Below are positions 3,269-62,444 of a stretch of DNA of 64,000 bases, piece by piece; the first letter of the stretch is position 1, and the number at the start of each line of letters is the position of its first letter. The position numbers and the translations under genes were made by a program. Under the pieces are notes generated by a model, which was given only the letters and a program-made list of their open reading frames with translations, did not search any database and had not been told where the DNA came from. This DNA comes from Okamejei kenojei. Its lineage: Eukaryota. The stretch spans positions 1,116,001-1,180,000 of the forward strand of contig CM069160.1 of NCBI GenBank assembly GCA_035221665.1, in the 5' to 3' direction.

Positions 3269-3269
3269 G

Positions 3270-26833: not shown

Positions 26834-27929
26834 CATGTTTACTCCCATGTTTGGAGTGCGGTTTGGGAGGCTGCACTCTGTTTCTCTGTTGCTTGTGGCT
26901 GATATATTACTGACCCAAACCCCCTCCCCCCCCCAGTGACCCGTCTGAAGAAGCTAGCTTGCTTCAATCCCGGGAAAAGACCACGGCATATCCCCAACTA
27001 AACACTCACCCCCCCCCCCCTCCCCACTCTGGATGGTTCACTAGACCTGGTCCCAACCATCACTGGCATAGCGGCCATGGAAGCAAGCCCAATGCCTCCC
27101 GCTCAGGAAGTTTGACATGGCCCAAAGATATTACCAATTTCTAATATGCTATCAGACATACTGCCAGCATTTCTGCCGAAAACTCCTCATCGCATCCCTA
27201 CAAAAATCCCAAACACATTGCTTGGTATGCATAATCTCTTTTCCACCCCTCCTATACCATAATTATACCCATCCCTCAATCTTACCCCCAATTCATAATC
27301 ATCATACAAACCCCCATCTCCTACCTCAACCCATATCTTCAACAATCCTTAATTTCCTCCCATTCTTAATAACCCCCCCCCNNNNNNNNNNNNNNNNNNN
27401 NNNNNNNNNNNNNNNNNNNNNNNNNNNNNNNNNNNNNNNNNNNNNNNNNNNNNNNNNNNNNNNNNNNNNNNNNNNNNNNNNNNNNNNNNNNNNNNNNNNN
27501 NNNNNNNNNNNNNNNNNNNNNNNNNNNNNNNNNNNNNNNNNNNNNNNNNNNNNNNNNNNNNNNNNNNNNNNNNNNNNNNNNNNNNNNNNNNNNNNNNNNN
27601 NNNNNNNNNNNNNNNNNNNNNNNNNNNNNNNNNNNNNNNNNNNNNNNNNNNNNNNNNNNNNNNNNNNNNNNNNNNNNNNNNNNNNNNNNNNNNNNNNNNN
27701 NNNNNNNNNNNNNNNNNNNNNNNNNNNNNNNNNNNNNNNNNNNNNNNNNNNNNNNNNNNNNNNNNNNNNNNNNNNNNNNNNNNNNNNNNNNNNNNNNNNN
27801 NNNNNNNNNNNNNNNNNNNNNNNNNNNNNNNNNNNNNNNNNNNNNNNNNNNNNNNNNNNNNNNNNNNNNNNNNNNNNNNNNAGTACTATTTTGCAACAAG
27901 GATCGAGCTGTGAATTGAGGCGAACTTAC

Positions 27930-27958
27930 ATAAGGGTGGATTGTAGCGCTGCTTCCCG
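27930..27958 (-). CDS. MHC class I cytoplasmic exon
   Basis: ttttacAG|CGGGAAGCAGCGCTACAATCCACCCTTAT|GTaagt; encodes the YNP motif typical of shark class I tails; 29 nt (likely a 1-nt indel). Confidence 0.7.
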
Positions 27959-28039
27959 CTGTAAAACACTCCAGAAAGTTAGTGATGCGAGGCCCGCTAC
28001 CTGATGGGTCTAAACACACAGACTCCACGGCTGCCCCGT

Positions 28040-28800
28040 GTGGAGGGGCAGGAGAGGCGGTGGGGGTGGGTGTCGGAGAGGTGGGGTGAGGGCGGAGGAT
28101 AAGTTGGGGTATGGGGGTTGGGGGTTGGACAGACGGTGAGGTGGGGAGGGGGGGTGGAGAGGCGGGGGTGGGGGTTGGAGATCGGTTGGGGAGTGGGGGG
28201 GTTGGACAGATGGGGTGGGGTGTGGAGGGGGGTGGAGAAGGCGGGGGTGGGGGTTGGAGAGGTGGGGATGGGGAGGGTTGGACAGATGGGGTGGGGTGGG
28301 GATGGGGGGGGTTGGACTGACGGCGTGGGGGATTGAGGGCGGGAGTTGGACAGCGGGGCGGGGCGGGGGGGTCGGATATTAGGGGGGGGTTGGACAGAAG
28401 GGGTAGGGGGTCGGAAGAGGCGGGGTGGGGGTGGTTCGGGATATCGGGGGGGTGGAGAGCGGGGTGGGGGGTTGGCGTGTTGGGGAGGGGGGGTTGGAAG
28501 ATGGGGTGGGTAGGGGAGGGGGGGTTGAAAGACGGGATGGGGGGGGGTCGGAGGGTGGGGGAGGGGTTGGACAGACGGGGCGGGGGGGTCGGGGATATAG
28601 ATGGGGGGTTGGACAGAAGGGGTAGGGGGTCGGAAGAGAAGAGGCGGGGCGTGGGGCGGAGGTGGTAGGAAATACAGGGGGGGGGGGTGGAGAGGCGAGG
28701 GTCGGGCGAGAGGCCGGTGGGGCGGGGGTCGTGGAGGTAGGTTGGGGTGTCTGTGGTAGAGGGAGCTTCACAGCTTCCTGGGGGGAGGGTGGACGGGGGA
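28040..28800. repeat. G-rich low-complexity intronic repeat
   Basis: Runs of G with recurrent GGTTGGACAGA. Confidence 0.8.
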
Positions 28801-28830
28801 CGGGGGCAGCCCTTCCGCCGCCCATACTAC

Positions 28831-28920
28831 CTTGTTCTTCTTCCAGTTGAGGATCCCCCACGCCTCTAGGCCACACCAGGACAACGAGCACAAGCAATGA
28901 GCGGGAACCTTGTTGCTGGA
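28831..28920 (-). CDS. MHC class I transmembrane exon (frameshifted)
   Basis: AG/GT bounded; reads ..LLVLVVLV..GVG then ILNWKKNK (hydrophobic span and basic stop-transfer) across indels. Confidence 0.7.
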
Positions 28921-29254
28921 CTTGCGGACAGTCAGAGATCACAGGGACATGTGGGGCGGGCGTGAGGGACAGAGAGCGGGTTCGCGGCTGCCCTCCCCCA
29001 CCCCCTTCTTACCTAACCTCCGTCTTCACTCACCCCTACCCTTCTCATCTTCCTCACTCTCCCTCCCTGCCGCACCCTTCTCACCCTATCCCCCCTCTCT
29101 ATCCCTCCCCTACCTTTCCTCCTCTCTCACTCCCCTCGGCCTATCCGTCCCCTTCGCATCCCCCCCTCCACTGCTAACCCTTCAGCTCCAACTCTCTTGA
29201 TCCCCTTTCCCTCATCTTCCCATTCCCTTACCCTTCTCCACTTTCCATCCCAGC

Positions 29255-29820
29255 CCCTTGTGTACAGTTTAGGTTCATACTTTGAGGAAGAGACATCATT
29301 GTGATTGAGGCAGTGCAGGTAGGTTTCACGAGATTGATCCCCTGGGATGGCGGGGACTGTCATATGAGGAAAAGATTGAAACGACTTGGCTTGTATCACT
29401 GGAGTTTAGAAGGATGAGGGGGGGGATCTGTATAGAAACATATTTAAAATTATAGATGGTCTGGAACAAGCAAGATGCAGGAAAAATGTTCTAATGTTGG
29501 GCGAGTTCCAGAACCAGGGGCACAGTGCTTTAGAAAAAGGGCAGAGGTCATTCAGACTGAGGTGAGAGAAAACTTTTTCCAGTGAGTTGTTGAATTTGTG
29601 GATTCCCTGCCACAGAGGGCAGTGGATGGCCAAGTAACTGGATGGATTTAAGGAGAGTTGGATAGAGCTCTAGGGGCTGGGTGGAGTCAAGCGGATTGGG
29701 ACGAAGAAGCAGGCACGGGTTATTGATAGCGGACGATCTGCCTATGATCACAATGAAAGGCGGGTGCTAGCTCAAGGGACGAATGCCTCCTCCTGCACCC
29801 GTTTTCTATGTTTCTATGCC
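29255..29820 (+). mobile_element. CR1/HER1-type LINE 3' fragment in a class I intron
   Basis: Indel-rich copy of the same 3' end. Confidence 0.85.
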
Positions 29821-29908
29821 ATGCCCTCTCCAACTTCTTCCCCCTCCGGTTCCTTCACCATTCCCTCCAAAACGCCGCACCTCCCCATCTCTCCCCCACC
29901 CCACTCAC

Positions 29909-30170
29909 CGGAAGACTCGAGGGTCCTTGGGACAGCCCCGGGTGCTCCACACGGCAGGAGAGCGGGTCGTGTCCCCGGGCTCCACGTCGGCCCAGCGGTG
30001 CGCTGGAAGGTGCCTTCGTTGGTTGGGCAGCGTCCGTGGGAGAGGTCTCTAATCCAGGAACAGGCCCGTCCCGCACCAGGTTCACCTCGATGGAGTGCGG
30101 GTAGAGCCCGTGGTGAAACACGGACACGCGGCCGCCATTGGCCGGACAGGAAGATGCACCTCGGGGTGAA
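29909..30170 (-). CDS. MHC class I alpha3 (Ig C1) exon (frameshifted)
   Basis: cccacAG|TTCACCCCGAG...|GTgagt; VHPEV..C..TG-LYPHSIEVNLVRDG..LPN.EGTFQ..SCRVEHPGL. Confidence 0.88.
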
Positions 30171-30184
30171 CTGTGGGAGAGGAC

Positions 30185-31100
30185 ATTGAGGGGGAGACAG
30201 TGAGGGGGGACGGTGAGGGGTGGACGTGAGGGGGGGACGGCGAGGGGGGAGACAGTGAGGGGGGGACGGCGGATGGGGGAGACAGTGAGGGGGGGGACGG
30301 TGAGGGGGGGACAAGGTGAGGGGGGGACGGCAGGAGGTGGGAGACAGTGAGGGGTTGGACTGGAGGGGGGAGACAGTGGGGGGGAAAGGGGGGGACGGCG
30401 AGGGGGAGACAGTGAGGGACGGGGTGACGGCGAGGGGTGGGGACAGTGAAGGGGGGGTGACGGCGACGGGGGCTGGTGACGGCCGAGCGGGGGGAGACTG
30501 GCGGAGGGGGGTGGAGACGGCCGAGGGGGGGAGACGGCGAGGGGGGGAGACGGCGAGGGGGTGGTGACGGCGAGTGGGGGAGACGGCGAGGGGGGGTGAC
30601 GGCGTGGGGGGGGTGACGGGCGAGGGGGGAGACGGCGAGGGGAGGGCGACGGCGACGGGGGGGGGAGACGGCGAGGGGGGGAGACGGCGAGGGGGGAGAT
30701 GGTGGGGGGGTGTGGGAGATGGTGAGGGGGGAGATGGGGGAGATGATTGAGGGGGCGAGGGGGGGGACGGCGAGGGGGGAGACATCGGAGGGGAGATGGT
30801 GAGGGGGAGACGGCGAGGGGGAGATGGTGAAGGGGGTGAGGGGTGCGAGTGGGGAGACGGCGAGGGGGATGGTGAGGGGGCGAGGGGGGAGTCGGCGAAG
30901 GGGAGTTGGTGGGATGAGTCGGTTGAGGGGGTGTGTATTGAGGGGGGCAGGGATGGTGAGGGGAGGGACGGTGGGGTGGGAGACGGTGGGGGGGAAAGGT
31001 GTGGGGGGGGGAGAAGGTGGGGGGGAGACAGTGAGGGGGGAGACAGAGGGGGAATACAGAGGAGGGGGGTAGGTGGTGGACAGAGAGTCGCAGGAGGGAA
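30185..31100. repeat. G-rich minisatellite (GGGGGAGACGGCGAG-like) in the alpha2-alpha3 intron
   Basis: Tandem ~15-17 bp units; they account for the Pro-rich ORFs 29814-31167. Confidence 0.85.
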
Positions 31101-31590
31101 AAGAAATAGGTTGCAGGTGGGAGGCCATACGGCCTTCGAGCCAAGCACCGCCATTCAATTTGATCAAGGCTGATCTCCCAATCAGTACCCCGTTACTGCC
31201 TTCCTCCCAATATCCCTGACCGTATTTTTAGGACCCGATCCTGCTCTCTCATTGAAAAGCAACAGAGAACTGCCTCCACCGCCTCTGAGGCAGAGAGAGG
31301 AATTCCACAGATCACATCTCTGTGAGAAAAAGTGTTACCTCGATCTCCGTTTCTAAATGGCTTACTCCTTATTCTTAAACTGTGGCCCCTGGTTTGGACT
31401 CCCCCACATCGCGAACATGTTTCTGCCTCTAGCGTGTCCAAGCCCCTTAATATCTTATAAGTTTCTGTGAGATATCCTTCATCCTCTAAAACTCCAGAGT
31501 GTACAAGCCCAAGCTGCTCTTTTCTCAGCATATGACAGTCCTCCTGCCATCCCGGGAATTAACTTGAAAACCTACGCTGCACCTCCCTCA
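31100..31590 (-). mobile_element. CR1/HER1-type LINE 3' fragment
   Basis: ETYKILRGLDTLEA..TRGHSLRIRSKPF. Confidence 0.85.
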
Positions 31591-31771
31591 AGGAGGGGGT
31601 CACTAGAGGAAAGGGCACAAAGGTGGGGAGTGAGCACAGTGGGGTTGGGTGGGGGACACGGGGGGCGGGGGACTGAGAGGGGCGGAACCACAGAGGGTGG
31701 TGGGGGCGGGGCACCGAGATGAGGGGGATAAGGAAAGCAACAGCATGACCCTGACCCCCAGACCCACTCAC

Positions 31772-32049
31772 CGGGGCTGTGTTGACTCTGTCCGGCCTGG
31801 ACATATTTCTGCAGCCACTCGATGCACGTCTCCTCCAGGTATGCTTTGTCCTGTTGTAGCCCCCCCTTGTTCCGTTCCCACTTGTATTTGGTCAAAACCC
31901 CCAGGGGACGGGCGTCACCCACACCATGTGTCCTTGTCGTAGCTGATGATAGTCCTTCCGGGGTTTTCCCAGCCGACCTTGTAAAACCCGGCGGTGGAAG
32001 CCGTCCGCGCGAAGCTCACAGCCGCACATCATCTGGGCTGTGTGGATCC
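31772..32049 (-). CDS. MHC class I alpha2 exon (frameshifted)
   Basis: ttgcAG|GGATCCAC...CCCCG|GTgagt; GIHTAQMMCGCELRADG..GFY..IISYDK..MVWVTPVPWG-VLTKYKWERNKGGLQQDKAYLEETCIEWLQKYV. Confidence 0.93.
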
Positions 32050-32962
32050 CTGCAACACACGGCCAGCAGTGGTGGGGGCTTTCCGTATCACCACCCCCAT
32101 TAAAACCAATCACACCACACACCAGCAGTGGAGTGGGCTTTCCGATATCACACCCCCCCCCCACANNNNNNNNNNNNNNNNNNNNNNNNNNNNNNNNNNN
32201 NNNNNNNNNNNNNNNNNNNNNNNNNNNNNNNNNNNNNNNNNNNNNNNNNNNNNNNNNNNNNNNNNNNNNNNNNNNNNNNNNNNNNNNNNNNNNNNNNNNN
32301 NNNNNNNNNNNNNNNNNNNNNNNNNNNNNNNNNNNNNNNNNNNNNNNNNNNNNNNNNNNNNNNNNNNNNNNNNACACAACACANNNNNNNNNNNNNNNNN
32401 NNNNNNNNNNNNNNNNNNNNNNNNNNNNNNNNNNNNNNNNNNNNNNNNNNNNNNNNNNNNNNNNNNNNNNNNNNNNNNNNNNNNNNNNNNNNNNNNNNNN
32501 NNNNNNNNNNNNNNNNNNNNNNNNNNNNNNNNNNNNNNNNNNNNNNNNACCACACCACACACACCATCACACACACGGAGGCAGTGGAGGGGCTTACGTA
32601 TCACTACACCCCCCCCCACACACACACACTGACCGGCAGTGGTGGGGCTTTCCACATCCTTCCACAACCACAACACCACACACACACACACACACACCAT
32701 GGTCTCTACCCCCTACCCATCAACACACACACAACCAGATGGTTCTACCCCCTACCAACACACACGCACCACCACCGCGTGGTTCTCTGCCCCTCCCTCT
32801 CAACACCACACACACACACAAGCTGTGTTCTCTCTGCCCCTCCCCCTCATCACACACACACACACACTCACACACACACACGGGCTTCTAACCCTTTCCC
32901 AACCCCAGCATCACAATCTGGACCCCAAACCACAGGTAAGTACCCCCGCCCCCACGCATCAC

Positions 32963-33222
32963 CCACGGTCGGTTGGTCCTCAGCCTGCTGGTCGGTCATT
33001 GGCCATTGATTTCTGGCTCCCTTCCCCGGCGTTTCAGTGTCTCCCGCTTCCCAGAGTATCGGAAGCCTGACTTCTCGCCACTCCACTGATGCGTTGCACC
33101 TTGATCCGGGTACGCTGTCGTCGTAATAATGCTCCTCGTCCACGTATCCCACCGCCGGTGAACTCAGGGACCCCCCCAGCCCGGGGTCACCCCGTGTAGA
33201 GGTAACGGAGCGTTGTAGGGAC
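32963..33222 (-). CDS. MHC class I alpha1 exon (frameshifted)
   Basis: tttccAG|GTCCC...; TLRYLYTG-VTPG..VPEFT-AVGYVDEE..YYD.S...W.RET....LRTN; about 260 nt. Confidence 0.87.
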
Positions 33223-33294
33223 CTGGAAACCGGGGCAGGGAAGTGGAGTCAAACAGTTCGGGACCAGACCCCAACCCATCACAACCCGATCATT

Positions 33295-34072
33295 TACTAT
33301 CTAAAATGGCTTAAGTTGGGAAAAGGGGAAGTACAACGGGATCTGGGGCTCCTTGTACATCAGTCTGTTGAAAGTAAGCATGCAGAGTTACAGCAGGAAG
33401 TGAGAAAGCGAATGCGTGTTGCCTTTTATAACAAGAGGAATCGAATATGGAAGGAAAGGAAAGAGGTCCATCTACAGTTGTACAGAGCCTAGTGAGACCA
33501 CATGGAGTATTGTGTGCTGTTTTGGTCCCTAATTTGAGGGAAGGACATTCTTATAAGTGAGGGAGGTGCAGCGTAGATTTACAGGTTAATTCCCGGGATG
33601 GCGTGACTGTCATTTTCTGAGAGAATGGAGCAGCTGGGCTTGTACACTCTGGGAGTTAGAAGGATGAGAGGGGCACTCATTGAAAACATATAAGATTGTT
33701 AAGGGCTTGGAATGCTAAGAGGCAGGAAACAGGTTCCGCTGTTGGGTGAAGTCCAGAACCAGGGGGCCGCAGTTTAAGAATAAGGATGAAGCCATTTCGA
33801 ACGGAGACGAGGGGAAAAACTTTTTCTCACAGAGAGTGGTGAGTCTGTGGAAATTCTCCTGAGCAGGGGCGAGTGGAGAGGACCAGGTTCTATTGGGATG
33901 GTTTAAAAAGAGAGCCAGTTAGGGCTCTTAAAAAATAAGCAGTCAGGGGATATGGGGAGAAGGCGAGGAACGGGGTACTGATTGGGGATGATCAGCCGAT
34001 GATTCACATTGAATGGCTGGTGCTGGGCTTCGAAGAGACCGACTGGCTCCTCCTGCACCCATTGTCTATTGT
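33295..34072 (+). mobile_element. CR1/HER1-type LINE 3' fragment (class I intron 1)
   Basis: Indel-rich copy. Confidence 0.85.
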
Positions 34073-34764
34073 CTTTACCCCAGCCACACCCCACCCCACA
34101 CACACCCCGCTCCAACAACACCCCACTCGCTTTTCCCCCCCAGACTCACACCACCCACTCAAGGACATCCGCCCTGACCCACAAACCCAAACGGAGGGCT
34201 GACACCTACCCGACACTTCCTAACCCTCCCGTCTCGCCCCGCCACCCCGGGGAGGTGACCATGTAACCTCACCCACACCACCCTTCCTACGAAGGCAACC
34301 TGCCTACAGACCCTCTTCCCCCCCCCCTCCCCCAGCCCCCCCCCCTCCACCATCCAACAATTTCAACCCCAATCCCCCAGAAGAACAGAAGGGTGGGGAG
34401 GGGCAGAGACCGACAGCGGAGGGTTGTGGGGGAGAGGACAGGGACTATCGTTGATGAGGGGCGTGGTAGACACGGATCATCAATGGAGGGATGGGAGGGG
34501 GATAAGAGAGGAACCCACGGCTAGTGGAAGGGGGGGACTTCCAGTAGGGAAAGCGGCTATGAAACATCAATGGCCAGTCGATTAAAAGAAAATGCCAAGG
34601 ATAAGGAGGCGATGGACATGGATATTCAAGGGCCTGATGGACCATCTAACAGGGGGTTTGGCTTTGACAAAAAAAGAAGACTGTAAACCGCCTTGATGAA
34701 GAACTTTGGAATCTTCCCATACTGCAGACAAGGTCCTTTGTTTGAGAATTAAGTAGAGAGGGTG

Positions 34765-35055
34765 GTGGGCACTGTGTGGCGCAGCTCTAGAGCATGCCTG
34801 ACAGCGCAAGAGACCGGGTCGATCCAACTAGGGTGTTGTCTGTTACGGAGTTTGCCGTTTCTCCTGTGACTGCATGGGTGATCTCTGAGATTCCGGCTTC
34901 TCCAAAGGTTTGTACGGGTTTATAGATAATTGGGCCTGGTGCAAAAATGTATAATTGTCTCTAGTGTGTATGGATAGTTGGTAATTGCGGGGAAGGTATT
35001 GGGCGGTGCTGAATCGTGTGGCCAAAGGGCCTGTTTTACGCGCTTACTCTCCAAA
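34765..35055 (+). mobile_element. tRNA-derived V-SINE (HE1-like)
   Basis: A-box-like TGGCGCAG, B-box-like GGTCGATCC, V-domain GGAGTTTG..TCTCC..TGCATGGG; related pieces at 15458-15680, 41455-41630 and 46410-46530. Confidence 0.7.
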
Positions 35056-35369
35056 AACTAATCTAAAAAAGCTAAACATAGAGATAATCTAGGGAATTGG
35101 AGGGTCCGTTGGGGTCCAAATCCAATTCCCTGAAAGTGGTTAACACAAGTACCAGAGTTTCGGTAACGTCGGCACATGGTATGCTTGCGTTATCGGTCAG
35201 GGCATTGAGTACAGAGTCAGGAAGACGTGTTGCAGATTTCATACCACATGATTAGGCTGCCATTTGGAGTATTGGCGTACAGTTTTGGACATCCCATTAA
35301 AGGATCGACGGGGAGGCTTTGAAGGATGTGGTGGTGGCTTTTTGAAGAGCTCCCGGCAATAGCAAATTC

Positions 35370-38300
35370 TAATGCTATTGAGGGAGTGCAGCGTAGGTTT
35401 ACAAGGTTAGTTCCGGAGATGGCGGGACTGTCATATGCTGAGAGAATGGCGCGGCTGGGCTTGTACACTCTGGAGTTTAGAAGGATGAGAGGGGATTTCA
35501 TTGAAAATATAAGATTGTTAAGGGCTAGGACACGCTCTAGTAGAGGCAGGAAACATTATCCGATGTTGGGGGAGGTCCAGAACCAGGGGCCACAAGGGGG
35601 TTTTTTTTAAGAATAAGGAGTAGTAGCCATTTAGAACGGAGACGAGGAAACACTTTTTCTCACAGAGAGTGGTGTCTGTGGAATTCTCTGCCTCAGAGGG
35701 CGATGAAGGCAGGTTCTCTGGATGCTTTCAAGAGAGAGCTAGATGGGGCTCTTAAAAATAGCGGAGTCTGGGAATATGGGGAGAAGGCAGGAACGGGGTA
35801 CTGATTGGGGATGATCAGCCATGATCACATTGAATGGCGGTGCTGGCTCGAAGGGCCAAATGGCCTCCTCCTGCACCTATTGTCTATTGATATTTCAGTT
35901 TGAGTCTCCTCCCCTGCCAGAGCGAGGCTACACGAAAAGAGGAAGAACAGCACAAACATTGAATTCTCACATTTTAGGTAACTGGTTCACCAATCCCCTC
36001 CTCCTTCTTAGCCCCTCCCCAATGCCCCACCTGGTTTTGCACCTATTTCTTCCCTCCCTTTCCGCTTCCTTTAGCTTCACTATTCGCTACTCTTTAATCC
36101 CTTTGTCTCACACCTTCTGCGGTTTCATCTCAGGCCTTTGTCCAACCAAAACGCCCTCAACCAATTACCTGTCAGTCTTTTTCCTGCCCCCCCCCCCCTC
36201 TCTTCCAGTTTTTTCACACCCACCCTTCTCACCCCCCAACCCCCACTAACTCCAAGGAGGGGTCCCGAGATGAAACATCACCTATCCATGATCTCCGGAG
36301 ATGCTGCTCGACCTGCTTAGTTACTCAGGACTTCATGTCTTGTATGTAAAGGGGGAGGTACAGTGAGACCTGGGTGTCCTTGTACACCGGTCACTGAAAG
36401 TTGGCGTGCAGGTACAGCAGGCAGTGAAGAAATGGAATGCTGGCCTTCATAACAAGAGGATTTCAGTACAGGAGTAAAGAGGTTCTTCTGCATTTGTGTA
36501 GGGATCTGGTGAGACCACATCTGGAGTATTGTGTACAGTTTTGGTCTCCTAATTTGAGGAAGGACATCCTTGTGATTGAGGCAGCGCAGCGTAGGTTCAC
36601 GAGATTGATCCATGGTTTGGCGGGACTGTCATATGAGGAAAGATTAAAAAGACTAGGCTTGTATTCATGGAGTTTAGTAGGATGAGGGGGGGGGATCTAA
36701 AAGAAAACATTATTAAGGAACTGGACAAGCCAGATACAGGAAAAATGTTCCCATTGTTGGGTGAGTCAGAAACCAGGGGCCACAGTCTTAGAATAAAGGG
36801 GAGGTCATTTAAGAACTGAGGTTTGAGAAAAAAAACTTTTTTACCCAGAGTTGTGAAATTTATGGAATTCTCTGCCACAGAGGGCAGTGAAGGCCAAATC
36901 ACTGGATGGATTTAAGAGAGAGTTGGATAGAGCTCTAGGGGCTGGTGGAGTCAAGGGATATGGGGAGAAAGCAGGCACGGGTTATTGATTGGGGACAATC
37001 AGCCATGATCACAATGAATGACGGTGCTGGCTCGAAGGGCTGAATGGCCTCCTCCTGCACCTATTTTCTATGTTTCTATGTTTCTTGTGAACTTACGCTG
37101 CACTGCCTCAATCACAAGGATGTCCTTCCTCATATTAGGAGACCAAAACTGTACACAATACTCCAGATGTGGTCTCACCAGAGCTCTATACAACAGCAGA
37201 AGAACCTCTTTACTCCTATACTGAAATCCTCTTGTTCTGAAACAGAAGGCTGTGGAGCCCAAGCTAATGGATATTTTATAAGATGGGTTTGAAAGGTTCT
37301 TGTTAGTACGGGTGTCAAGGATTATGGGGAGAATGCAGGAGAATGCGGTTGAGAGGGATGATAGATCAACATGATTGAATGGCAGGGACTTTTTGGGTTG
37401 AATGGCATAATTCTACGTGTACATCTCATGAACGTATAAGTCCTACCCTGGTTTATTTACAACCATCTTCCATCAAGAGTTGCATCCATTTGCATCTTTG
37501 GCTCATTTCACCAGGTCACCAGACCGTGGTGTAATCACAGATGAATCTCTCGGCGTCCACTACACCACCAATGTGGGCTTCATCTGAAAACCTACTAACC
37601 ATGTCAACAACAAACTGTGAATAGAAATGACAAACCACAATGGGCCCAGCTCTGACCCTGCAGCGCACGGGCTTCTAATCTGACGAACGACACTGCCGAA
37701 CCCTCCTGAGTCCCACCACAAAGCCAACTTTGGATTCATTGCCTTGCTGACCCTGGGATCATGGGATCTAACCTTCCGGACCAGTCCACAAAGGTGAGAC
37801 CTTGTCAAAGGCTAAAGGCCATGTCAACAACATCCTCCACCTTACCCACATAAATCATATGGAATCATTTGGAAGAGGGAATTAGGAGCACCACTAGCAA
37901 GTTTGCAGATGACACAGCTGGGCTCAGGCAGTGAGGTGTGTGAAACTGTGAAGAGGATGTTTGTTAGGAGGTTGCAGGGGGTCCTGGACAGGTTGTGAGT
38001 GCAGTGGGCAGATGCGTGGCAGATGCAGTATAATATAGATAAATGTGAGGTTATCCACTTTGGCGGCAAAAATAAGGGGGCAGATTATTATCTCAATGGG
38101 GTTAGGTTAGGTAAGGGGGAGGTACAGCGGAGACCTGGGCGTCCTTGTACACAGTCACTGAAAGTTGGCGTGCAGGTTCAGCCAGGCAGTGAAGAAAGCT
38201 AATGGAATGCTGGCTTCATAATAAGAGGATTTTTTCAGTATAGGAGTAAGGAGGTTCTTCTGCAGTTGTATAGGGCTCTGGTGGACCACATCTGGAGTAT

Positions 38301-39435
38301 TGTGTACAGTTTTGGTTCTCCTAATTTGAGGAAAGGACATCCTTGTGATTGAGGCAGTGCAGCGTAGGTTACACGAGGTTGATCCCTGGGATGGCGGGGG
38401 GACTGTCATATGACGAAAGATTGAAAAGACTAGGCTTGTATCTCACTGGAGTTTTATAAATGGATGAGGGGGCTCTTATAAGAAGCATATAAAATTATTA
38501 GAAGGACTGGACAAGCTAGATGCAGGAGAAATGTTCCAATGTTTGGGGCGAGTCAGAACCAGGGGCCAGTCTCTTAGAATATAAGGGAGGTCATTTAAGA
38601 CTGAGCTGAGAAAAAACTTTTTCACCCAGAGAGTTGAGAGTTTGTGGAATTCCCTGCCACCGAGGGCAGTGGAGGCCAAGTCACTGGATGGATTTAAGAG
38701 AGAGTTGGATAGAGCTCTAGGGGCTAGTGGAGTCAAGGGATATGGGGAGAAGGCAGGCACGGGTTATTGATAGCGGACGATCAGCCATGATCACAATGAA
38801 TGGCGGTGCTGGCTCGAAGGGCCGAATGGCCTCCTCCTGCACCTATTTTCTTTGTTTCGTATGACTGGACAAGCGAGATGCAGAAAACATGTTCCCAATG
38901 TTGGGCGAGTCCAGAACCAGGGGCCACAGTCTTAGAATAAAGGGGAGGTCATTGAAGACTGAGGTGAATAAAAGCTTTTTCACCCAGAGAGTTGTGAATT
39001 TGTGGAATTCCCTGCCACAGAGGGCAGTGGAGGCCAAATCACTGGATGGATTTAAGAGAGGGTTGGATAGAGCTCTAAGGGCTAGTGGAGTCAAGGGTTA
39101 TGGGGAGAAGGCAGGCATGGGTTATTGATAGGGGACGATCAGCCATGATGGCATTGAATGGCGGTGCTGGCTCGAAGGGCCAATTTGTGGTCCCAGGCAC
39201 AAAGACAGATGTGTACAGCAATTCGTTCTTCCCACCCTCTATTAAAACATGGAATAATCTCCACCAAACCACGGTTGCCCAGCCAGATGCAACTAAATTT
39301 AAAGTGGCACTTTCTTCCCAATAACCCTCTCTTGCTAAGCCCCTCCCTTCACCACCTCCAGTTTAAATTCCAGTTGGAATATTTTGGAGGACCAAGTAAC
39401 CAAGAAGAACCAAGAATGGCCTCCTCCTGCACTTA
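35370..39435 (+). mobile_element. Nested run of CR1/HER1 3' fragments (35370-35890, 36345-37085, inverted 37083-37235, 37860-39180) with a Penelope terminus at 35960-36335
   Basis: Multiple ORFs with RPHLEYCVQFWSP / SRTRGHSLRI / QRVVNLWNSLP. Confidence 0.85.
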
Positions 39436-39535
39436 TTTTCTATGTTTTCTATGAACTGCTCACCCACTGACACTGACCCTGTGTCCAGCCCAACACACGC
39501 ACACACACACACCTCACCCACTGACCCTCACCCAC

Positions 39536-39594
39536 CTGCGGACTCGCCTCCACACAGGAGAGCCGCCAGCAGTAGCAGTACGCAGACGCTGCAT
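39536..39594 (-). CDS. MHC class I leader (signal peptide) exon
   Basis: ACC-ATG Kozak context; reads MQRLVLLLLAALLCGGESA-G after removing one base; ends CAG|GTgggt. Confidence 0.82.
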
Positions 39595-39681
39595 GGTCTG
39601 TCCAGGTTGCGGCAGGTTTGCGAGTCCCGGGGCAGAGGGCGGATTCACCTCCAGTCGTCCCGCACTGACTGGTGCCCGCGG

Positions 39682-39827
39682 CCAAATCACAGTCCGGCCG
39701 CCCGGGAGAGTCACCGGTATCCGGGCAGAAGAGCCGCAAGATTTATGTCGCTCGCAATGACAGATGGAAAATATCCCAGTCTGTGCAATCAGCAGCGGAG
39801 CTGGGGCCCGCCTCACCGGTTGTCGGG
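39682..39827 (-). promoter_or_regulatory. MHC class I proximal promoter: two tandem X1/X2-Y modules and a kB-like site
   Basis: CCCGGATACCGGTGAC (X 39725-39712) + 24 nt + ATTTGG; CCCGACAACCGGTGAG (X 39827-39814) + 24 nt + ATTGC; GGGATATTTTCC 39777-39766; 90-230 nt upstream of the ATG. Confidence 0.72.
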
Positions 39828-39976
39828 GACAGTGGAGAGCGTGTGATTTGCAATGACACACACCGAGAGTGTGCGAGCAGGAGCGAGAGACGCACAGGAC
39901 CCACCCACACAGATCCTGGAGATACTGACTAGACGGACCCTGGGGATAGAGAATCAGTGAAGAAAGCGAATGGCAT

Positions 39977-40348
39977 GATTCCTAGGATGGCCAGACCGAT
40001 TCCTGGGATGACCAGACTGATTCCTGGGATGGCCAGACTGATTCCTGGGATCACAGACGATTCCTGGGATGGCCAGACTGATTCCTGGGATGGCCAGACT
40101 GATTCCTGGGATGACCAGACTGATTCCTGGCATGACCAGACTGATTCCTGGGATGTCCAGACTGATTCCTGGGATGTCCAGACTGATTCCTGGGATGACC
40201 AGACTGATTCCTGGGATGGCCAGACTGATTCCTGGGAGGTCCAGACTGATTCCTGGGATGACCAGACTGATTCCTGGCATGACCAGACTGATTCCTGAGA
40301 TGTCCAGACTGATTCCTGGGATGGCCCAGACTGATTCCTGGGATGCCA
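39977..40348 (+). repeat. 21-bp minisatellite (CCAGACTGATTCCTGGGATG+N) derived from CR1 coding sequence
   Basis: About 17 copies encoding TRLIPGM, running directly into a CR1 3' fragment at 40345. Confidence 0.92.
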
Positions 40349-41245
40349 GGACTTTCATATGAGGAAAGACTGGATAGACTCGGCTTGTACTCGCTAGAAT
40401 TTAGAAGATTGAGAGGGGATCTTATAGAGACTTACACAATTCTTAAGGGGTTGGACAGGCTAGATGCAGGAAGATTGTTCCCGATGTTGGGGAGGACCAT
40501 AACAAGGGGTCACAGTTTAAGGATAAGGGGGAAATCTTTTAGGACCGAGATGAGAACAAATATTTTCACACAGAGAGCGGTGAATCTGTGGAATTCTCTG
40601 CCACAGAAGGTAGTTGAGGCCAGTTCATTGGCTATATTTAAGAGGGAGTTAGATGTGGCCCTTGTGGCTAAAGGGATCAGGGGGTATGGAGAGAAGGCAG
40701 GTACAGGATACTGAGTTGGATAATCAGCCATGATCATATTGAATGGCGGTGCAGGCTCGATGGGGCCAATGGCCTACTCCTGCACTATTTTCTATGTTTC
40801 TATGACTATGAGCATAGAGGTCCTTCTGCAGCTGTACAGAGACCTAGTGAGACCACACCTGGAGTATTGTGTGGAGTTTTGGTCCCCTAATTTGAGGAAG
40901 GACATTCTTGCTATTGAGGGAGTGCAGCGTAGGTTTACAAGGTTAATTCCCAGGATGGCAGGACTGTCATATGCTGAGAGAATGGAGCAGTTGGGCTTGT
41001 ACACTCTGCAGTTTAGAAGGATGAGAGGGATTCTCATTGAAACATATAAGATTGTTAAGGGCGGTGGAGGTGGGTTCTCTGGATGCTTTCAAGAGAGAGC
41101 TAGAGAGGGCTCTTAAAAATAGCAGAGTCAGGGGATATGGGGAGAAGGCAGGAACGGGTTGGGGATGATCAGCCATGATCACATTGAATGGCGGTGCCGG
41201 CTCGAAGGGCCAAATGGCCTACTCCTGCACATATTGTCTATCTAA
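40345..41245 (+). mobile_element. Two tandem CR1/HER1 3' fragments
   Basis: ORFs 40343..40714 and 40730..41116. Confidence 0.92.
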
Positions 41246-41712: not shown

Positions 41713-44700
41713 TCAAGGTGACCAAGGCTGGGAGCTCAACATGTAAGGGTATTCAATATTCAGGAAAGATAGACCAAAAGGAAGAACAGTTAAAGAGGAG
41801 ACTAATGCATTAGTAAGGAGAGACATTTGCTTGGATGCTGTAGAATTTGTGGGTAGAACTGCAAAATAAACAAGGGTAAAAAACCCTTGTGTACAGACCA
41901 GCAAACAGCAGTAGGGAGGTTGGGTTTGGCATCAAACACGAAACTAGGGATGCGCGTAGCAAAGGTACAGTAGTTAACATGGGTGACTTTAATCTACATA
42001 TAGATTGGGTCAACCAAATTGGTAACAGCGCTGAGGAGGATTTCCTGGAATGTACAGTGGCTTGCAAAAGTTTTCATACCCCTTGAACTTTTCCACATTT
42101 TGTCACGTTACAACTACAAACGTAAATGTATCTTATTGGGATTTTATGTGATAGACCAACACAAAGTGGTGCATAATTGTGAAGTGGAAGGAAAATGATA
42201 CATGGTTTTCAAATTTTTTTACAAATAAAAAACTGAAAAGAGTGGCGTGCAAACGTATTCAGCCCCCTTTACTCTGATACCCCTAAATAAAATCCAGTGC
42301 AACCAATTGTCTTCAGAAGTCACTTAATTAGTAAATAGAGTCCACTTGTGTGTAATCTAATCTCAGTATAAATACAGCTGTTCTGTGAAGGCCTCAGAGG
42401 TTGTTAGAGAACAAACAGCATTATGAAGCCCAAGGAGCACACCAGACAGGTCAGGGATAAATTTGAAGGAGAAGTTTAAAGCAGGGTTAGGTTATAAAAT
42501 AATATCCCAAGCTTTGAACATCTCATGGAGCACTGTTCAATTCCATCATCCGAAAATGGAAAGAGTATGGCACAAACTGCAAACCTACCAAGACATGGCC
42601 GTCCACCTAAACTGACAGGCCGTCAAGGAGAGCTTGATCAGAGAAGCAGCAAGAGGCCCATGGTAACTTGGAGGAGCTGCACAGATCCACAGCTCAGGTG
42701 GGAGAATCTGTCCAAGGACAACTATTAGTCGTTGCACTCACAAATCAGGCTTTATGGAAGAGTGGCAAGAAAGAGAAAGCCATTGTTGAAACAAAAGCCA
42801 TAAGGAAGTCAGTTTGCAGTTTGCCACAAGCCATTGTGGGGGACACAGCAAACATGTGGAGGAAGGTGCTCTGGTTGTGATGGAGACCAAAATTGATGTT
42901 TTTGGCCTAAATGCAAAACGCTATGTGTGGCGGAAAAAACCAACACTGCACATCACCCTTGAAACACACCATCCCCACTGTGAAACATGGTGGTGGCAGC
43001 ATCATGCTGTGGGGATGCTTTTCTTCAGCATGGACAGGGAAGCTGGTCAGAGTTGATAGAAAGATGGATGGAGCCAAATACAGGGCAATCTGGGAAGAAA
43101 ACCTGTTAGAGTCTTCAAAAGACTTGAGACTGGGGCGGAGGTTCACCTTCCAGCAGGGACAACGACCCTAAAACATACAGCCAGAGCTACAATGGAATGG
43201 TTTAGATCAAAGCATATTCATGTGTTAGAATGGCCCAGTCAAAGTCCAGACTAAATCCAATTGAGAATCTCTGGCAAGACTTGAAAATTGCTGTTCACAG
43301 ACGCTCTCCATCCAATCTGACTGAGCTTGAGCTATTTTGCAAAGAATGGGCAAAAATTTCAGTCTCTAGATGTGCAAAGCTGGTAGAGACATACCCCAAA
43401 AGACTGGCAGCTGTAATTGCAGCGAAAGGTGGTTCTACAAAGTATTGACTCAGGGGGGCTGAATACTTTTGCACGCCACACTTTTCAGTTTTTTATTTGT
43501 AATAAAATTTGGAAACCATGTATCATTTTCCTTCCACTTCACAATTATGCACCACTTTGTGTTGGTCTATCACATAAAATCCCAATAAAATACATTTACG
43601 TTTGTGGTTGTAACGTGACAAAATGTGGAGAAGTTCAAGGGGTATGAAAACTTTTGCAAGCCACTGTATATGGGATGGTTTTCTAAGCCAATATGTAGAG
43701 GAACCAACTAGAGGGTAGGCCATCCTGGACTGGTATTGTGTAATGAGGAAGGATTAGTTAGCAATCTTGTTGTGCAAAGCCTTTTGGGCAACAGTGCCCA
43801 TAATATGGTGGAATTCTGCATTAGGATGGACACAGTTAATCCAGAGACTAGGGCCCCAAACTTAAACAAATTAGACTTTGTTGGTAGGAGACGGGAATTG
43901 GCAAGGACAGACTGGCAAATTATACTTAAAGGGTTGAGGGTAGAGATGCAATGGCAAAGATTTAAAGATTGCATGGTTTGACTATAAAAATCGTTCACCT
44001 CTGCCTGGCGAAAAAATAAAATGGGGAAGGCGGCTCAACCGTGGCTAAGGAGGGAAATTAAGGAGAGTAATAAATCAAAGGAAGAGGCATATAAATTGGC
44101 CAGAGGAAACAGCAAACTGGGATAAATTTAGAATTCAACTGAAGAGGACAAAGGGGTAAGTTAAGAGGGGGAAGAAGAGCTTGATACATAGAAACATAGA
44201 AAATAGGTGCAGGAGGAGGCCATTCGGCCCTTCGAGCCAGCACCGCCATTCATTGTGATCATGGCTGAAAGAAAGATTGTGGGGAATATAAAAACTGTCT
44301 GTAAAAACTTCTTTAGATATGTGAAGAAGAAAAGATTAGTGAAGACAAATGTAGGTCCCTTACAGTCAGAGACAGGTGTATTTATAAGGGGAAATAAGGT
44401 AATGGCAGACCAGTTAAACAGATGCTTTGGTTCCGACTTCATTAAGGAACTCACATAATAATCTCCCGGAAATACTAGGGGACCGAGGATCTAGTGGGAG
44501 GGAGGAATTGAAGGGAATCCACATTAGTCAGGAAATGGTGTTAGGTAAACTGTTGGGACTGCAGGCCTATAGATCCCCAGGGCCTGGCGGTCTGCATCCC
44601 AGAGTACTCACGCAGGTGGCACTAGAAATCGTCGATGTATTGGTCATCATTTTCCAATGTTTTATGGACTAGTTCAGATCCTGTATACAGGAGGGTAGAT

Positions 44701-49019: not shown

Positions 49020-49130
49020 CAAGGCGGCAACCGGACAGCATTGGTGGCCAGATTGGCCACAATTCAAAGCGAGGGAGAAAGTGCCCAGCGCCGACCAGTT
49101 GCCGTGGCAGTGCGCATGCGTAGGGCGGCC
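49020..49130. promoter_or_regulatory. Candidate promoter (possibly BBS10): two CCAAT boxes, RFX X-box, NRF1-like site, GC box
   Basis: ATTGG twice (49040, 49052), GTTGCCGTGGCAG 49098-49110, TGCGCATGCG 49111-49120, GGGCGG 49123. Confidence 0.45.
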
Positions 49131-50385
49131 GATGATGTGCTGGCCGTGGTTGTGCACATGTGCAGGGGGAGGATGTGCTGGCCATAGCAGTGCGCATGTG
49201 CAGGGGGAGGATGTGCTGGCCGTGGTTGTGCACATGTGCAGGGGGAGGATGTGCTGGCCGTAGCAGTGCACATGTGCAGGGGGAGGATGTGCTGGCCGTA
49301 GCAGTGCGCATGTGCAGGGGGAGGATGTGCTGGCCGTAGCAGTGCGCGTGTGGAGGGGGTGGATGTGCTGGCCGTAGCAGTGCGCATGTGCAGGGGGAGG
49401 ATGTGCTGGCCGTAGCAGTGTACATGTGCAGGGGGAGGATGTGCTGGCCGTAGCAGTGCACATGTGCAGGGGGAGGATGTGCTGGCCGTAGCAGTGCGCA
49501 TGTGCAGGGGGAGGATGTGCTGGCCGCGCATGTGCAGGGAGAGGATGTGCTGGCCGTAGCAGTGCGCATGTGCAGGGCGGCCGATGATGTGCTGGCCGTA
49601 GCAGTGCGCGTGTGCAGGGGGAGGATGTGCTGGCCGTAGCAGTGCACATGTGCAGGGGGTGGATGTGCTGGCCGTAGCAGTGCGCGTGTGCAGGGGGAGG
49701 ATGTGCTGGCCATAGCAGTGCACATGTGCAGGGGGTGGATGTGCTGGCCGTAGTTGTGCGCATGTGCAGGGGGAGGATGTGCTGGCCATAGCAGTGCGCG
49801 TGTGCAGGGGGTGGATGTGCTGGCCGTGCCGTGTGTGGCTGGCATGTGCAGGGGGATGGATGTGCTGGTCGTAGCAGTGCACATGTGCAGGGGGAGGATG
49901 TGCTGGCCGTAGCAGTGCACATGTGCAGGGGGAGGATGTGCTGGCCGTAGCAGTGCACATGTGCAGGGGGAGGATGTGCTGGCCGTAGCAGTGCATGTGC
50001 AGGGGGAGGATGTGCTGGCCGTAGCAGTGCACATGTGCAGGGCGGCCGATGATGTGCTGGCCGTAGCAGTGCGCGTGTGCAGGGGGAGGATGTGCTGGCC
50101 GTAGCAGTGCATGTGCATGTGCTGGCCGTGGTTGTGCGCATGTGCAGGGGGAGGATGTGCTGGCCGTAGCAGTGCACATGTGCAGGGCGGTCAAGGATGT
50201 GCTGGCCGTAGCAGTGCGCGTGTGCAGGGGGAGGATGTGCTGGCCGTAGCAGTGCGCATGTGCAGGGGGAGGATGTGCTGGCCGTAGCAGTGCACATGTG
50301 CAGGGGGAGGATGTGCTGGCCGTAGCAGTGCACATGTGCAGGGCGGTCAATGATGTGCTGGCCGTAGCGGTGCGCATGTGGAAGG
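49110..50385. repeat. 38-bp minisatellite GGATGTGCTGGCCGTAGCAGTGC(A/G)CATGTGCAGGGGGA, about 33 copies
   Basis: Period 38 read directly (49261 to 49299); accounts for the 378-518 aa repetitive ORFs. Confidence 0.95.
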
Positions 50386-52394: not shown

Positions 52395-53018
52395 TGTGAG
52401 GGATAAAATGATTAAACCCCACTATTGTAAGGGCTCAGGAGAGGATTCTAACCGATAGAGGCTAGGGAGAGGATTCTGACACAGCTGTGGATGAAGTTAC
52501 CAGAACTGTCCTTGAGTAAGGATTGATGGCATTGTATAGCGGTAGAAGGGAGTGATGGATGCGACCCTTATCAGTAGAGTAGTGATGGATGTGACCCTTG
52601 TCAATAGAGTCTAGCTTTTAATTCAGATACAAGAGAACTGAGAGAGGTCAGTTGGAGGTGAGCAAACTGGGGCAGGTCATTTACAACTGAGCATGCTTAA
52701 TGAAATAAATGAATATTACTAACACACCCCTGGTCAAGAAACTGCTCATTACCATGCACATGTATGGACATGCGATGTATGATGTGGGAGGTACTGGGGG
52801 GACGAACCTATAGACTGTGCACCTCAGTGCCCTGATTGGAGAGGGCCAGAAGGGGAGGTTAAATGTAGAATTGTGTGTATAAAGGGGCTTTACTTTCCTG
52901 ACTTTGGTGTGTCTCAACTTGGAGAGGCACCCGACTCTGCAGACTCGCAAATAAAGCATTTCTTGTTTCCATGATTTAGTCTCTGAGTAGTGATTGTGAG
53001 CACAACCTATATCTCACA
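52395..53018 (+). repeat. 5' LTR
   Basis: ATTGG, TATAAA (~52878) and AATAAA (~52950); about 11 substitutions versus the 3' LTR by manual count. Confidence 0.97.
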
Positions 53019-53021
53019 AAG

Positions 53022-53039
53022 TGGGGGCTCGTCCGCGAT
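53022..53039 (+). other. Primer-binding site, tRNA-Pro
   Basis: TGGGGGCTCGTCCGCGAT, 17/18 match to canonical TGGGGGCTCGTCCGGGAT. Confidence 0.92.
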
Positions 53040-53511
53040 CGCCACTCCGGCCACTCCGGCCACTCGGCGGAAGCACGGAAGGAAGGGAAGGTGCACCCTG
53101 CTGATTTCAGCAGTCTCTGATCTCCTTGCTTGCCATCAGCGGTTTGAGCGAGTGATATCCGGACAAGAGACTCGGGAAACAAGAGGGAGTGTCGGAAAAA
53201 TAAACAAGGGACGGTCAAGCGATTCTTGTGCACAAGACCCGGGTAAGAAAACTGACTATTAAGTATTGCCCGGGCGACCGAGGGTCTGTCGGACGGGAAT
53301 AGTCCGATAACCAGAACGGGAAAAGTAAGAGTCCGGGGGGGAAAAGAAATAGGCTCAATGGTGAAGAGCCGCACAGGCAATCTTGGAGAGAAGGAAGCCC
53401 CGCGGGTAAAAATAAGGAGACTATGATTAAGTTCTGTTATTTTGATTAACCAAAGGAACCAATAAGGGGGAGTTCAGTCTGGTGGCCACGACTGGGCTCC
53501 GATGAGGATTG

Positions 53512-53861
53512 GGCACTTTGGATGCTGTACAGAATATTCAGAGTATCACTCAAACATTGCAAAAATCTAAGGAAAATCACAGTGCCAAATGCATTGAGTA
53601 CGAAAAGTTAAAAAAAAGGAAGGAGCAATACAGAAAGAACTAGAAAAGGCAACTGTCAAATCTAAAAAAAAAAGCTACAGAAACCTATAAATCATATGTG
53701 GAAAAACAGATTTTGAACAAAAATTGACAGAAACCTCGAAGAAATTTCAGGAAATGGAAGCTCATCTTAAGCACGTGAAAGAAATATTGAGTTGTTTCAC
53801 ACAATCTTTAGAAGAAACTCATATACAGATTGGTCAGGTACATGAGGAGTTAGTGCATAGC
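53512..53861 (+). pseudogene. FCHO2: Captured, intronless fragment of host FCHO2 (F-BAR domain) inside the ERV
   Basis: [111 protein letters not shown]; frameshifts in A-runs. Confidence 0.88.
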
Positions 53862-54339
53862 AGAAAGTAGAGTAGCAATAAGAATTATATAAATGTTAAT
53901 TTTGAAACTTTAATCTGTGTAGGAAATTGCATAATTTCATTGAAGTAAGAATGGAACAAATGTGATTTGTGTGTAAAAACCGGTTTTGAATGAATGAGGA
54001 AGTTCATATATATGATAGGTTTGTTTGCTGTAGGCCACATGCTGTAAGGGTAGGTGTGTGTGTTCCTTTAAGAAATTGTAAGTGATGGGGGAGGTTACCA
54101 ACAGCTGTAAGGTAACGAACAACGCTTTGTATCATCGCAACATAAAAGGGGAAAGTTGGAAAATGTAGGTTGCTTGGTTTCTATAGATTTCTTTTCAGTA
54201 AAGTTAATTTGGAAAATTGTTACTAGTACTAGGAATTGGAAATTTAAAAATAGTGGTGAGAATGGATTAAAATAATTGGAAATAAGTTAATTGCTGAAAC
54301 ATGACCAGCTTTTGTCGTTTGTTTAGATAAACATTCTGG

Positions 54340-55680: not shown

Positions 55681-55799
55681 ATTAAGATAATGGTGAACAT
55701 AGCTATGGTAAGAACATTAAGAAGAGGTATTAAATACCCTAGGCTAGGGTGCAGTAGGGTTTTAAATACTAGCCCCATGTTTTTAATCAGATGTTGTAG

Positions 55800-56870: not shown

Positions 56871-56885
56871 TGTATAACTAGCAGT

Positions 56886-62255: not shown

Positions 62256-62440
62256 ATGTGCGGTGAGCTGGACGTGGGGATGCTGCTGCAGGTAGCGGCG
62301 GCTCTGGAGAGCGTGCTGTCCCCGTGCTTTGGTCCACAAGGTGGCCAGGTACTGTTCACCAGTGCCACAGGTGAGGTGCTCATCACCAGGGACGGGGTGA
62401 CTATCCTGGACTCACTGATGCTGGAGCACCCTGTCGCCAG
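62256..62440 (+). CDS. BBS10: Bardet-Biedl syndrome 10 (chaperonin-like) first coding exon
   Basis: MCGELDVGMLLQVAAALESVLSPCFGPQGGQVLFTSATGEVLITRDGVTILDSLMLEHPVA-R; phase-2 donor AG|GTcagt at the position of the conserved BBS10 intron (after EHP.AR); acceptor tgtgcAG at 62253. Confidence 0.9.
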
Positions 62441-62444
62441 GTCA

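What the first reader, a model, noticed from the sequence alone, without database searches (positions are those of the whole stretch)
27930..39594. Hidden MHC class I gene with classical peptide-anchoring residues, frameshifted probably by assembly error
Seen: six exons in the correct order with AG/GT boundaries and near-canonical lengths (59, 260, 278, 262, 90, 29 nt). alpha2 retains T143/K146/W147 (TKYKW) and Y159, C164, W167, Y171; alpha1 shows Y7 (LRYLY) and R84 (LRTN); there is an extra Cys in MMCGC. Neighbouring young LINEs in 29-38 kb show the same dense 1-nt indels, which suggests low-quality consensus rather than true pseudogenisation. The final exon may lie in the N gap. Automated annotation would likely miss the gene; its lineage (classical UAA versus a non-classical lineage) cannot be decided here.
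Basis: partly seen in the sequence, partly recalled or inferred. Interest (0 to 1): 0.7.

Follow-up and report, generated by a model that had tools for sequence, protein, structure and literature searches.

The report
Skate MHC class I duplicate gene
This is a real immune gene of a skate (an MHC class I heavy chain, the protein that shows peptides to T cells) whose many one-letter breaks look like sequencing errors; it seems to be a skate-specific second copy rather than the main variable locus, so it is a useful annotation but not a new kind of gene.

Summary
Confirmed: a minus-strand MHC class I heavy-chain gene with six exons (39594 to 27930). Seven of the eight peptide-end anchors read cleanly; Y59 sits on a break. 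Exon 7 is not in the window. There are 29-58 breaks, 51 of 58 one base long. LINE copies at 27.9-36 kb carry 14 times more indels than flanking copies but no extra substitutions, and the exons keep their CpGs. Poor local consensus is therefore the best explanation (about 0.7). The read test gave no exon coverage, so a pseudogene is not excluded. The lineage can be placed: UAA branch, in a skate-specific clade whose little-skate members are intact, apparently spliced and nearly invariant in the groove (6 of 178 sites in 9 sequences). A bbs10 exon lies 22.7 kb upstream; bbs10 marks the elasmobranch MHC chromosome away from the TAP/PSMB8 core. It is most likely an 'MHC-Ia-like' duplicate, a known kind, not the polymorphic classical locus. 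The 'extra' Cys also occurs in classical nurse-shark UAA. Corrections: exon 5 is 98 nt with a damaged acceptor, and the error zone ends near 36 kb.

The parts
39785..39828 (-). X1-X2-Y-like (SXY) promoter module about 190 nt upstream of the ATG, inside a CpG-rich stretch
   Evidence: pattern recalled from MHC promoters and written after seeing the site; the loose X2-Y part is expected 0.75 times per window by chance; CpG o/e 0.69 at 39455-39975
39536..39594 (-). exon 1, leader peptide, 59 nt, one +1 break, GT donor
32963..33222 (-). exon 2, alpha-1 domain, 260 nt; Y7 and R84 readable, Y59 on a break; N86 sequon region; 10-18 breaks
31772..32049 (-). exon 3, alpha-2 domain, 278 nt; C101, T143, K146, W147, Y159, C164, W167, Y171; 3-6 breaks, the last ~120 nt unbroken
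29909..30170 (-). exon 4, alpha-3 Ig C1 domain, 262 nt; both Cys present; 9-16 breaks, one TAG in the nucleotide-level alignment
28831..28928 (-). exon 5, connecting peptide/transmembrane, 98 nt by homology; homologous acceptor reads TG; many deletions
27930..27958 (-). exon 6, first cytoplasmic exon with the GYN tyrosine motif, 29 nt, one -1 break
27382..27881 (.). 500-N gap; exon 7 probably lies in it or beyond it
27882..36000 (.). zone of low-quality consensus: LINE copies carry 1.65 private indels per 100 sites versus 0.12 in the flanks
62256..62441 (+). first coding exon of bbs10 (Bardet-Biedl syndrome 10), head-to-head with the class I gene, 22.7 kb from its ATG; synteny marker of the elasmobranch MHC chromosome
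   Evidence: PMC10751288 supplement

Best explanation
A skate MHC class I heavy-chain gene of the UAA branch, a member of a skate-specific second clade ('clade B'; MHC-Ia-like), which is probably intact in the animal and broken here mainly by low-coverage, unpolished consensus near a contig end. Shown: exon order, phase-1 junctions, 7 of 8 anchors, clade placement, bbs10 neighbour. Inferred from class I biology: the chain pairs with beta-2-microglobulin, closes both groove ends on a short peptide with Y7/Y59/Y159/Y171 and R84/T143/K146/W147, is transcribed from an SXY-type promoter and shows peptide at the cell surface. Inferred from the little-skate relatives: the groove varies little, so it presents a narrow peptide set as a low-polymorphism Ia-like molecule next to, not in place of, the polymorphic classical locus.
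For: Error: LINE copies at 27.9-36 kb have 36 indels in 2176 sites versus 5 in 4273 in the flanks (Fisher p 9e-13), with substitutions not raised (3.3 vs 4.9 per 100) (zones chosen). 51 of 58 exon indel events are one base, insertions and deletions balanced (32 vs 34 nt), about one indel per amino-acid-changing substitution, whereas neutral LINE copies in the flanks show 0.01-0.11 indels per substitution. Exons 1-4 keep CpG o/e 0.72-0.88 versus 0.42 for the window. All six donors are GT and 4 of 5 homologous acceptors AG. Intact relatives exist: a RefSeq little-skate protein plus 8 Logan proteins of 344-360 aa on 1120-1150-nt contigs, which must be spliced to hold the ORF (inference). Clade: alpha1+2 tree groups the window with clade B at 99/94; raw exon DNA scores best against clade B without a guide sequence (alpha1 179-186 vs at most 140; alpha2 373-377 vs at most 323). 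Clade B groove: 6 of 178 alpha1+2 positions vary among 9 sequences. Position: bbs10 lies 1.6 Mb from the TAP/PSMB8/Ia block in sawfish and about 18 Mb in white shark, and 0.32 Mb from a UAA-type gene (P0018) in sawfish; no TAP, PSMB or zinc-finger hit in 248 frames scanned of the 282 listed.
Against: No reads confirm an intact frame (0 of 2 runs cover the exon). Exon indel density (3-6 per 100 nt) exceeds the LINE figure (1.65, a conservative count). 35 of 253 unbroken codons give residues seen in no skate relative, some at positions invariant in alignment A1; the terminal branch is long (0.35 and 0.21); one TAG and one TG acceptor occur. The low groove variation comes from a cluster cut at 90% identity, which by design drops divergent alleles, and the species of the 8 Logan members is not given. 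A little-skate model (P0021) has clade-B alpha1, alpha3 and tail but an alpha2 only 79% identical: a second copy or a recombinant allele, the latter a classical trait. A 64-kb window cannot exclude TAP linkage (the Ia region spans up to 1.9 Mb, PMC10751288), frameshifted or short exons escape the Pfam scan, and a 145-N stretch lies between the gene and bbs10.
Confidence: 0.5

Rival explanations
1. Intact gene broken by consensus errors, but it is the (or a) classical polymorphic UAA locus, clade B being one old allelic lineage or one of two co-dominant classical loci.
For: All readable anchors are classical (defining set from PMC4364491). The intact relative's best PDB match is classical nurse-shark UAA*01, 6LUP (E 3.4e-96). 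Window residues differ from the little-skate relative at groove-facing alpha1 helix positions (about 70, 73, 74), as alleles would. P0021 suggests alpha2 exchange. SXY-like promoter.
Against: Clade B has its own leader, transmembrane and cytoplasmic tail, which marks a separate locus rather than an allele. The alpha2 helix 143-171 is almost unchanged between the window and little skate, while it differs widely among the four clade-A skate proteins (these are four species, not alleles). Neighbour is bbs10, not TAP/PSMB8.
Confidence: 0.2
2. A real, recently decayed pseudogene or relaxed copy of the clade-B gene, with sequencing errors laid on top.
For: 35 private residues in 253 unbroken codons, one TAG, TG acceptor at exon 5, exon indel rate above the local LINE rate, exon 7 absent. 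Batoids carry several UAA-type copies (4-6 clusters each in Hypanus, Hemitrygon, Mobula), so dead copies are expected.
Against: An indel density of 3-6% from neutral decay should come with far more substitutions and CpG loss; neither is seen. The neutral LINEs around it share the indel excess. Donors and anchors are kept.
Confidence: 0.22
3. A member of an established non-classical lineage (UBA, UCA, UDA, UEA, UFA, UGA) or of shark UAA-2.
For: The bbs10 neighbourhood borders the Ib clusters in sawfish and white shark.
Against: By eye against the labelled sequences in the PMC10751288 supplement: nurse-shark UBA lacks Y59, T143, K146 and Y159, which clade B has; UAA-2 has a different, longer alpha3 start; UCA, UDA, UFA, UGA differ throughout. 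The window's alpha3 is 81-87% identical to skate UAA-type proteins and at most 59% to any non-skate row. UEA was not among the labelled sequences seen.
Confidence: 0.05

Closest known systems
Little skate class I protein XP_055487160.1 and its 90% cluster (P0002, P0007-P0014; clade B here)
   Same: Leader, LRYLY, KRRG, IHTAQMMCGC, TKYKWER helix, transmembrane start and GYNP tail; 73-78% (alpha1), 83-85% (alpha2), 80-86% (alpha3) identity over unbroken codons.
   Different: The window copy is broken by 29-58 indels, lacks exon 7 in the window, and has 47 differences in 253 unbroken codons, 12 of them shared with other skate class I proteins, so it is probably another species' orthologue.
Elasmobranch 'MHC-Ia-like' genes (Verissimo et al. 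2023, PMC10751288)
   Same: UAA-type sequence, extra copy on the MHC chromosome, number varying by species.
   Different: Those are described as close to the Ia gene and surrounded by zinc-finger genes; no zinc-finger motif was found in this window and the neighbour is bbs10. Skates were left out of that study.
Classical UAA: nurse shark Gici-UAA*01 (PDB 6LUP) and skate clade A (XP_032903661.1, XP_055486554.1, AGH32767.1, XP_078251810.1)
   Same: The eight anchor positions, R84 in an RTN motif, Cys at position 99 (nurse shark), exon plan; alpha3 nearly shared with skate clade A (81-87%).
   Different: Separate clade in both trees; different leader, transmembrane and tail; relatives show little groove variation. 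That clade A is the classical skate locus is my inference, not tested.

Membership tests
MHC class I heavy chain | leader, alpha1, alpha2, alpha3, TM, cytoplasmic exons in order with phase-1 introns | tested here: met
   last cytoplasmic exon missing
MHC class I heavy chain | MHC_I domain and disulfide cysteines in alpha2 and alpha3 | tested here: met
   PF00129 above cut-off; C101, C164 and both alpha3 Cys in the alignments
Classical MHC-Ia (UAA locus) | eight peptide-end anchors Y7, Y59, R84, T143, K146, W147, Y159, Y171 (PMC4364491) | tested here: met
   7 of 8 read directly; Y59 lies on a break here and is present in all 9 clade-B relatives
Classical MHC-Ia (UAA locus) | UAA-branch sequence rather than UBA/UCA/UDA/UFA/UGA/UAA-2 | tested here: met
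   trees (no lineage-labelled Ib rows), 6LUP best PDB hit, by-eye comparison with labelled supplement sequences
Classical MHC-Ia (UAA locus) | high allelic polymorphism in the groove | tested here: inconclusive
   6 of 178 sites vary in 9 clade-B proteins, but the cluster is cut at 90% identity and P0021 carries a divergent alpha2
Classical MHC-Ia (UAA locus) | tight linkage to TAP1/2 and PSMB8/9 | tested here: inconclusive
   none found in 64 kb; neighbour is bbs10; the Ia region can span 87 kb-1.9 Mb (PMC10751288)
Classical MHC-Ia (UAA locus) | ubiquitous high expression, peptide binding, CD8 T-cell restriction | not testable with these tools
   no RNA holder listed
Elasmobranch MHC-Ia-like genes | UAA-type duplicate distinct from the bona fide Ia locus | tested here: met
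   second skate clade with its own leader, TM and tail; which clade is the bona fide locus is inferred
Elasmobranch MHC-Ia-like genes | surrounded by zinc-finger genes | tested here: not met
   no C2H2 motif in six frames, no Pfam zinc-finger hit; only 64 kb seen
UBA (non-classical) | loss of anchors (Y59, T143, K146, Y159 in nurse-shark UBA) | tested here: not met
   T143, K146, Y159 present versus supplement sequences
Pseudogene | lesions confirmed in accurate reads, no transcript | tested here: inconclusive
   no read coverage; indirect tests favour error

The most novel reading that the evidence does not exclude
Skates carry an undescribed, lineage-specific class I locus beside bbs10 that keeps all classical peptide anchors but has frozen its groove across genera while sharing alpha3 with the polymorphic locus by gene conversion: an HLA-E/Qa-1-like, peptide-binding non-classical molecule that arose independently from UAA in cartilaginous fish.
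Probability: 0.25. Interest if true: 0.55.

Novelty: new member of a known kind. Interest (0 to 1): 0.3.

Why it matters
As it stands it adds one class I gene and a class I-bbs10 linkage to the skate MHC, which was left out of the elasmobranch MHC reconstruction because its genes were on unplaced scaffolds (PMC10751288). It also shows how GC-rich MHC exons can vanish from annotation through consensus errors. If clade B proves to be a low-polymorphism peptide binder, skates would offer a test of how non-classical, HLA-E-like molecules arise from classical loci in the oldest animals with an MHC.

Tried and rejected
Own-genome search: no genome held. Sequencing runs: 2 DNA contig runs at share 0.06, no RNA holder listed; laid on 31594-32100 they gave no exon coverage, only a 38-nt intronic piece of an unrelated contig; no evidence either way. 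Search for short fragments of clade-A alleles: 1 candidate, none at E<=1e-10. Exon 7 search with two relatives' tails: no hit above background. RXRB, which flanks bbs10 in sawfish and white shark: short recalled motifs gave one irrelevant match. Candidate exons for the second promoter-like module: nothing recognisable. Weak Pfam hits below cut-off (DUF5527, hEGF, OVT1, IL11, LSM_int_assoc) treated as noise. Earlier findings: none. Almeida et al. 2020 (PMC7002201) is not held, so UDA/UEA/UBA definitions rest on a review's passages and the supplement sequences. Searches for a paper on skate class I lineages found none (0 papers; 12, 30, 35, 61: nothing skate-specific); subscription papers and the Almeida thesis are not covered. 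The careful alpha3/TM tree did not finish; the quick tree is cited. No fold or complex was run: the fold is not in doubt.
Full report
Observation. Three-frame reading shows a class I heavy chain that keeps changing frame. A clean 49-residue frame of exon 3 passes the Pfam MHC_I cut-off and matches class I structures. Exons are 39594-39536, 33222-32963, 32049-31772, 30170-29909, 28928-28831 and 27958-27930. All six donors are GT; four of five homologous acceptors are AG; the exon 5 acceptor reads TG. Seven of the eight anchors that define classical peptide binding (PMC4364491, passages seen) read directly; Y59 lies on a break. Exon 7 was not found in the window.

Error or decay. Against an intact relative (P0009) the exons need 29 frameshift steps at codon level (exon 2 and 5 limits there were slightly different) or 58 indel events at nucleotide level, 51 of them one base, with 57 amino-acid-changing substitutions (the 5 events in exon 1 are inflated by the aligner, one is real). 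The window supplies a neutral control. LINE copies at 27.9-36 kb show 36 private indels in 2176 sites; copies at 10-27.4 kb and 39.6-64 kb show 5 in 4273 (p 9e-13); substitutions are not raised (72 vs 208) (zones drawn, and 0-10 kb and 36-39.5 kb were left out of that comparison; 3.2-10 kb is a second error-rich patch). The zone runs from a contig end at the 500-N gap across two internal N stretches. Exons 1-4 keep CpG at 0.72-0.88 of expectation against 0.42 for the window. This is the pattern of poor consensus. Against it: the exon indel rate is two to three times the LINE figure, 35 of 253 unbroken codons give residues found in no skate relative, and there is one TAG and one bad acceptor. 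The direct test failed for lack of data: two DNA runs were listed and neither covered exon 3. I put an intact underlying gene at about 0.7.

Lineage. The closest intact proteins form one 90% cluster: a RefSeq little-skate protein and 8 Logan proteins on contigs of 1120-1150 nt, just long enough for the spliced ORF. With 39 relatives, the alpha1+2 tree puts the window with this cluster (99/94), with a further little-skate model P0021 next (100/99), sister to four other skate proteins (clade A), all ten skate rows together at 97/85 (two partial rows left out of each tree; only 4 of the 9 cluster members were used). Because the window read-through was guided by P0009, I scored the raw exon DNA against 13 proteins without a guide: clade B wins for alpha1, alpha2 and exon 6, and alpha3 separates skates (232-248) from all others (at most 145) but not A from B. 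So the duplication is skate-specific and alpha3 is shared between clades. The intact relative's best solved match is classical nurse-shark UAA*01 (6LUP, E 3.4e-96), which also has the RTN motif and the Cys two residues before C101 (6LUP identified in PMC8236899, passages). By eye against the labelled sequences in the supplement of PMC10751288, UBA lacks several anchors that this gene has, and UAA-2, UCA, UDA, UFA and UGA differ in alpha3 and the groove. The trees hold no labelled Ib rows.

Classical or Ia-like. Among the 9 clade-B proteins only 5 of 87 alpha1 and 1 of 91 alpha2 positions vary, against 6 of 61 in TM and tail. The four clade-A proteins are 68-77% (alpha1) and 77-82% (alpha2) identical to each other, but come from four species. 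The 90% clustering hides divergent alleles, and P0021 joins a clade-B alpha1 to a different alpha2 (79%), so low polymorphism is suggested, not shown. Position points the same way. A chaperonin-family exon at 62256-62441 is bbs10: 8 of the 10 top hits looked up are named Bardet-Biedl syndrome 10. bbs10 is on the MHC chromosome of white shark, catshark and sawfish, between rxrb and hsd17b8, 1.6 Mb from the TAP/PSMB8/Ia block in sawfish and about 18 Mb in white shark. In sawfish a UAA-type gene, LOC127585898 (P0018), lies 0.32 Mb from bbs10. No TAP, PSMB or zinc-finger frame was found among 248 of 282 listed open frames (the rest lie in the gene's own region or in repeats). Verissimo et al. describe extra 'MHC-Ia-like' genes in sharks and rays, in species-dependent numbers, and excluded the thorny skate because its MHC genes were unplaced (PMC10751288: parts 1-3 of 7 of the text, passages, supplement parts 5, 18, 19, 97, 98).

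Mechanism. Shown: gene anatomy, anchors, clade, neighbour. Inferred from established class I biology: association with beta-2-microglobulin, closed-ended binding of short peptides, surface display. An X1-X2-Y-like module sits at 39828-39785 (consensus recalled, pattern written after seeing the site, weak evidence), which fits NLRC5-type control (recalled). Inferred from relatives: a groove conserved within little skate and, in the unbroken alpha2 helix, between species, hence a narrow peptide repertoire. Residue numbers follow HLA-A2 by my alignment to the supplement's HLA-A2 rows.

Novelty. A new member of a known kind. My searches found no paper on skate class I clades (also passages of PMC12562908, PMC6523485 and bioRxiv 10.64898/2026.03.23.713620), but the main lineage papers (Almeida 2020, 2021) were not readable (for the first; the second not tried) and may already cover them. 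The boldest reading not excluded is a skate-specific, groove-conserved peptide binder of HLA-E type (probability 0.25). Overall interest 0.3.

Noticed in passing
window 2546-2664 (+): A second, near-consensus X1-X2-Y module followed within 80 nt by ISRE-like and kB-like sites (consensus recalled), then a possible short first coding exon with a GT donor near 2746-2760. It may be the promoter of another interferon/NLRC5-type MHC-region gene; no downstream exon was recognised, and 3.2-10 kb is error-rich.
   Followed up: partly
window 62256-62441 (+): First coding exon of bbs10, intact, preceded by an AG acceptor; the rest of the gene lies beyond the window. RXRB, its upstream neighbour in sawfish and white shark, was not detected.
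   Followed up: yes
window 52395-59362: Endogenous retrovirus-like element: two 624-nt direct repeats identical at 613 positions (young), with fragmented frames hitting Pfam RVT_1 (weak), MLVIN_C (E 9e-11) and TLV_coat (weak).
   Followed up: partly
window 42400-43450 (+): Tc1/mariner remnant (weak HTH_SB and DDE_3 hits).
   Followed up: no
window 3200-10000: A second patch of indel-rich LINE copies (22 indels in 1794 sites), away from any N gap.
   Followed up: partly
proteins P0007, P0021, P0017, P0022, P0024: alpha3 is 89-99% identical between skate clades A and B while grooves differ by 25-35%, and P0021 pairs a clade-B alpha1 with an A-like alpha2: signs of gene conversion or exon exchange among skate class I loci.
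   Followed up: partly
window 39976-40349, 49101-50380, 62462-63587: GC-rich minisatellites of 21, 38 and 34 nt.
   Followed up: no
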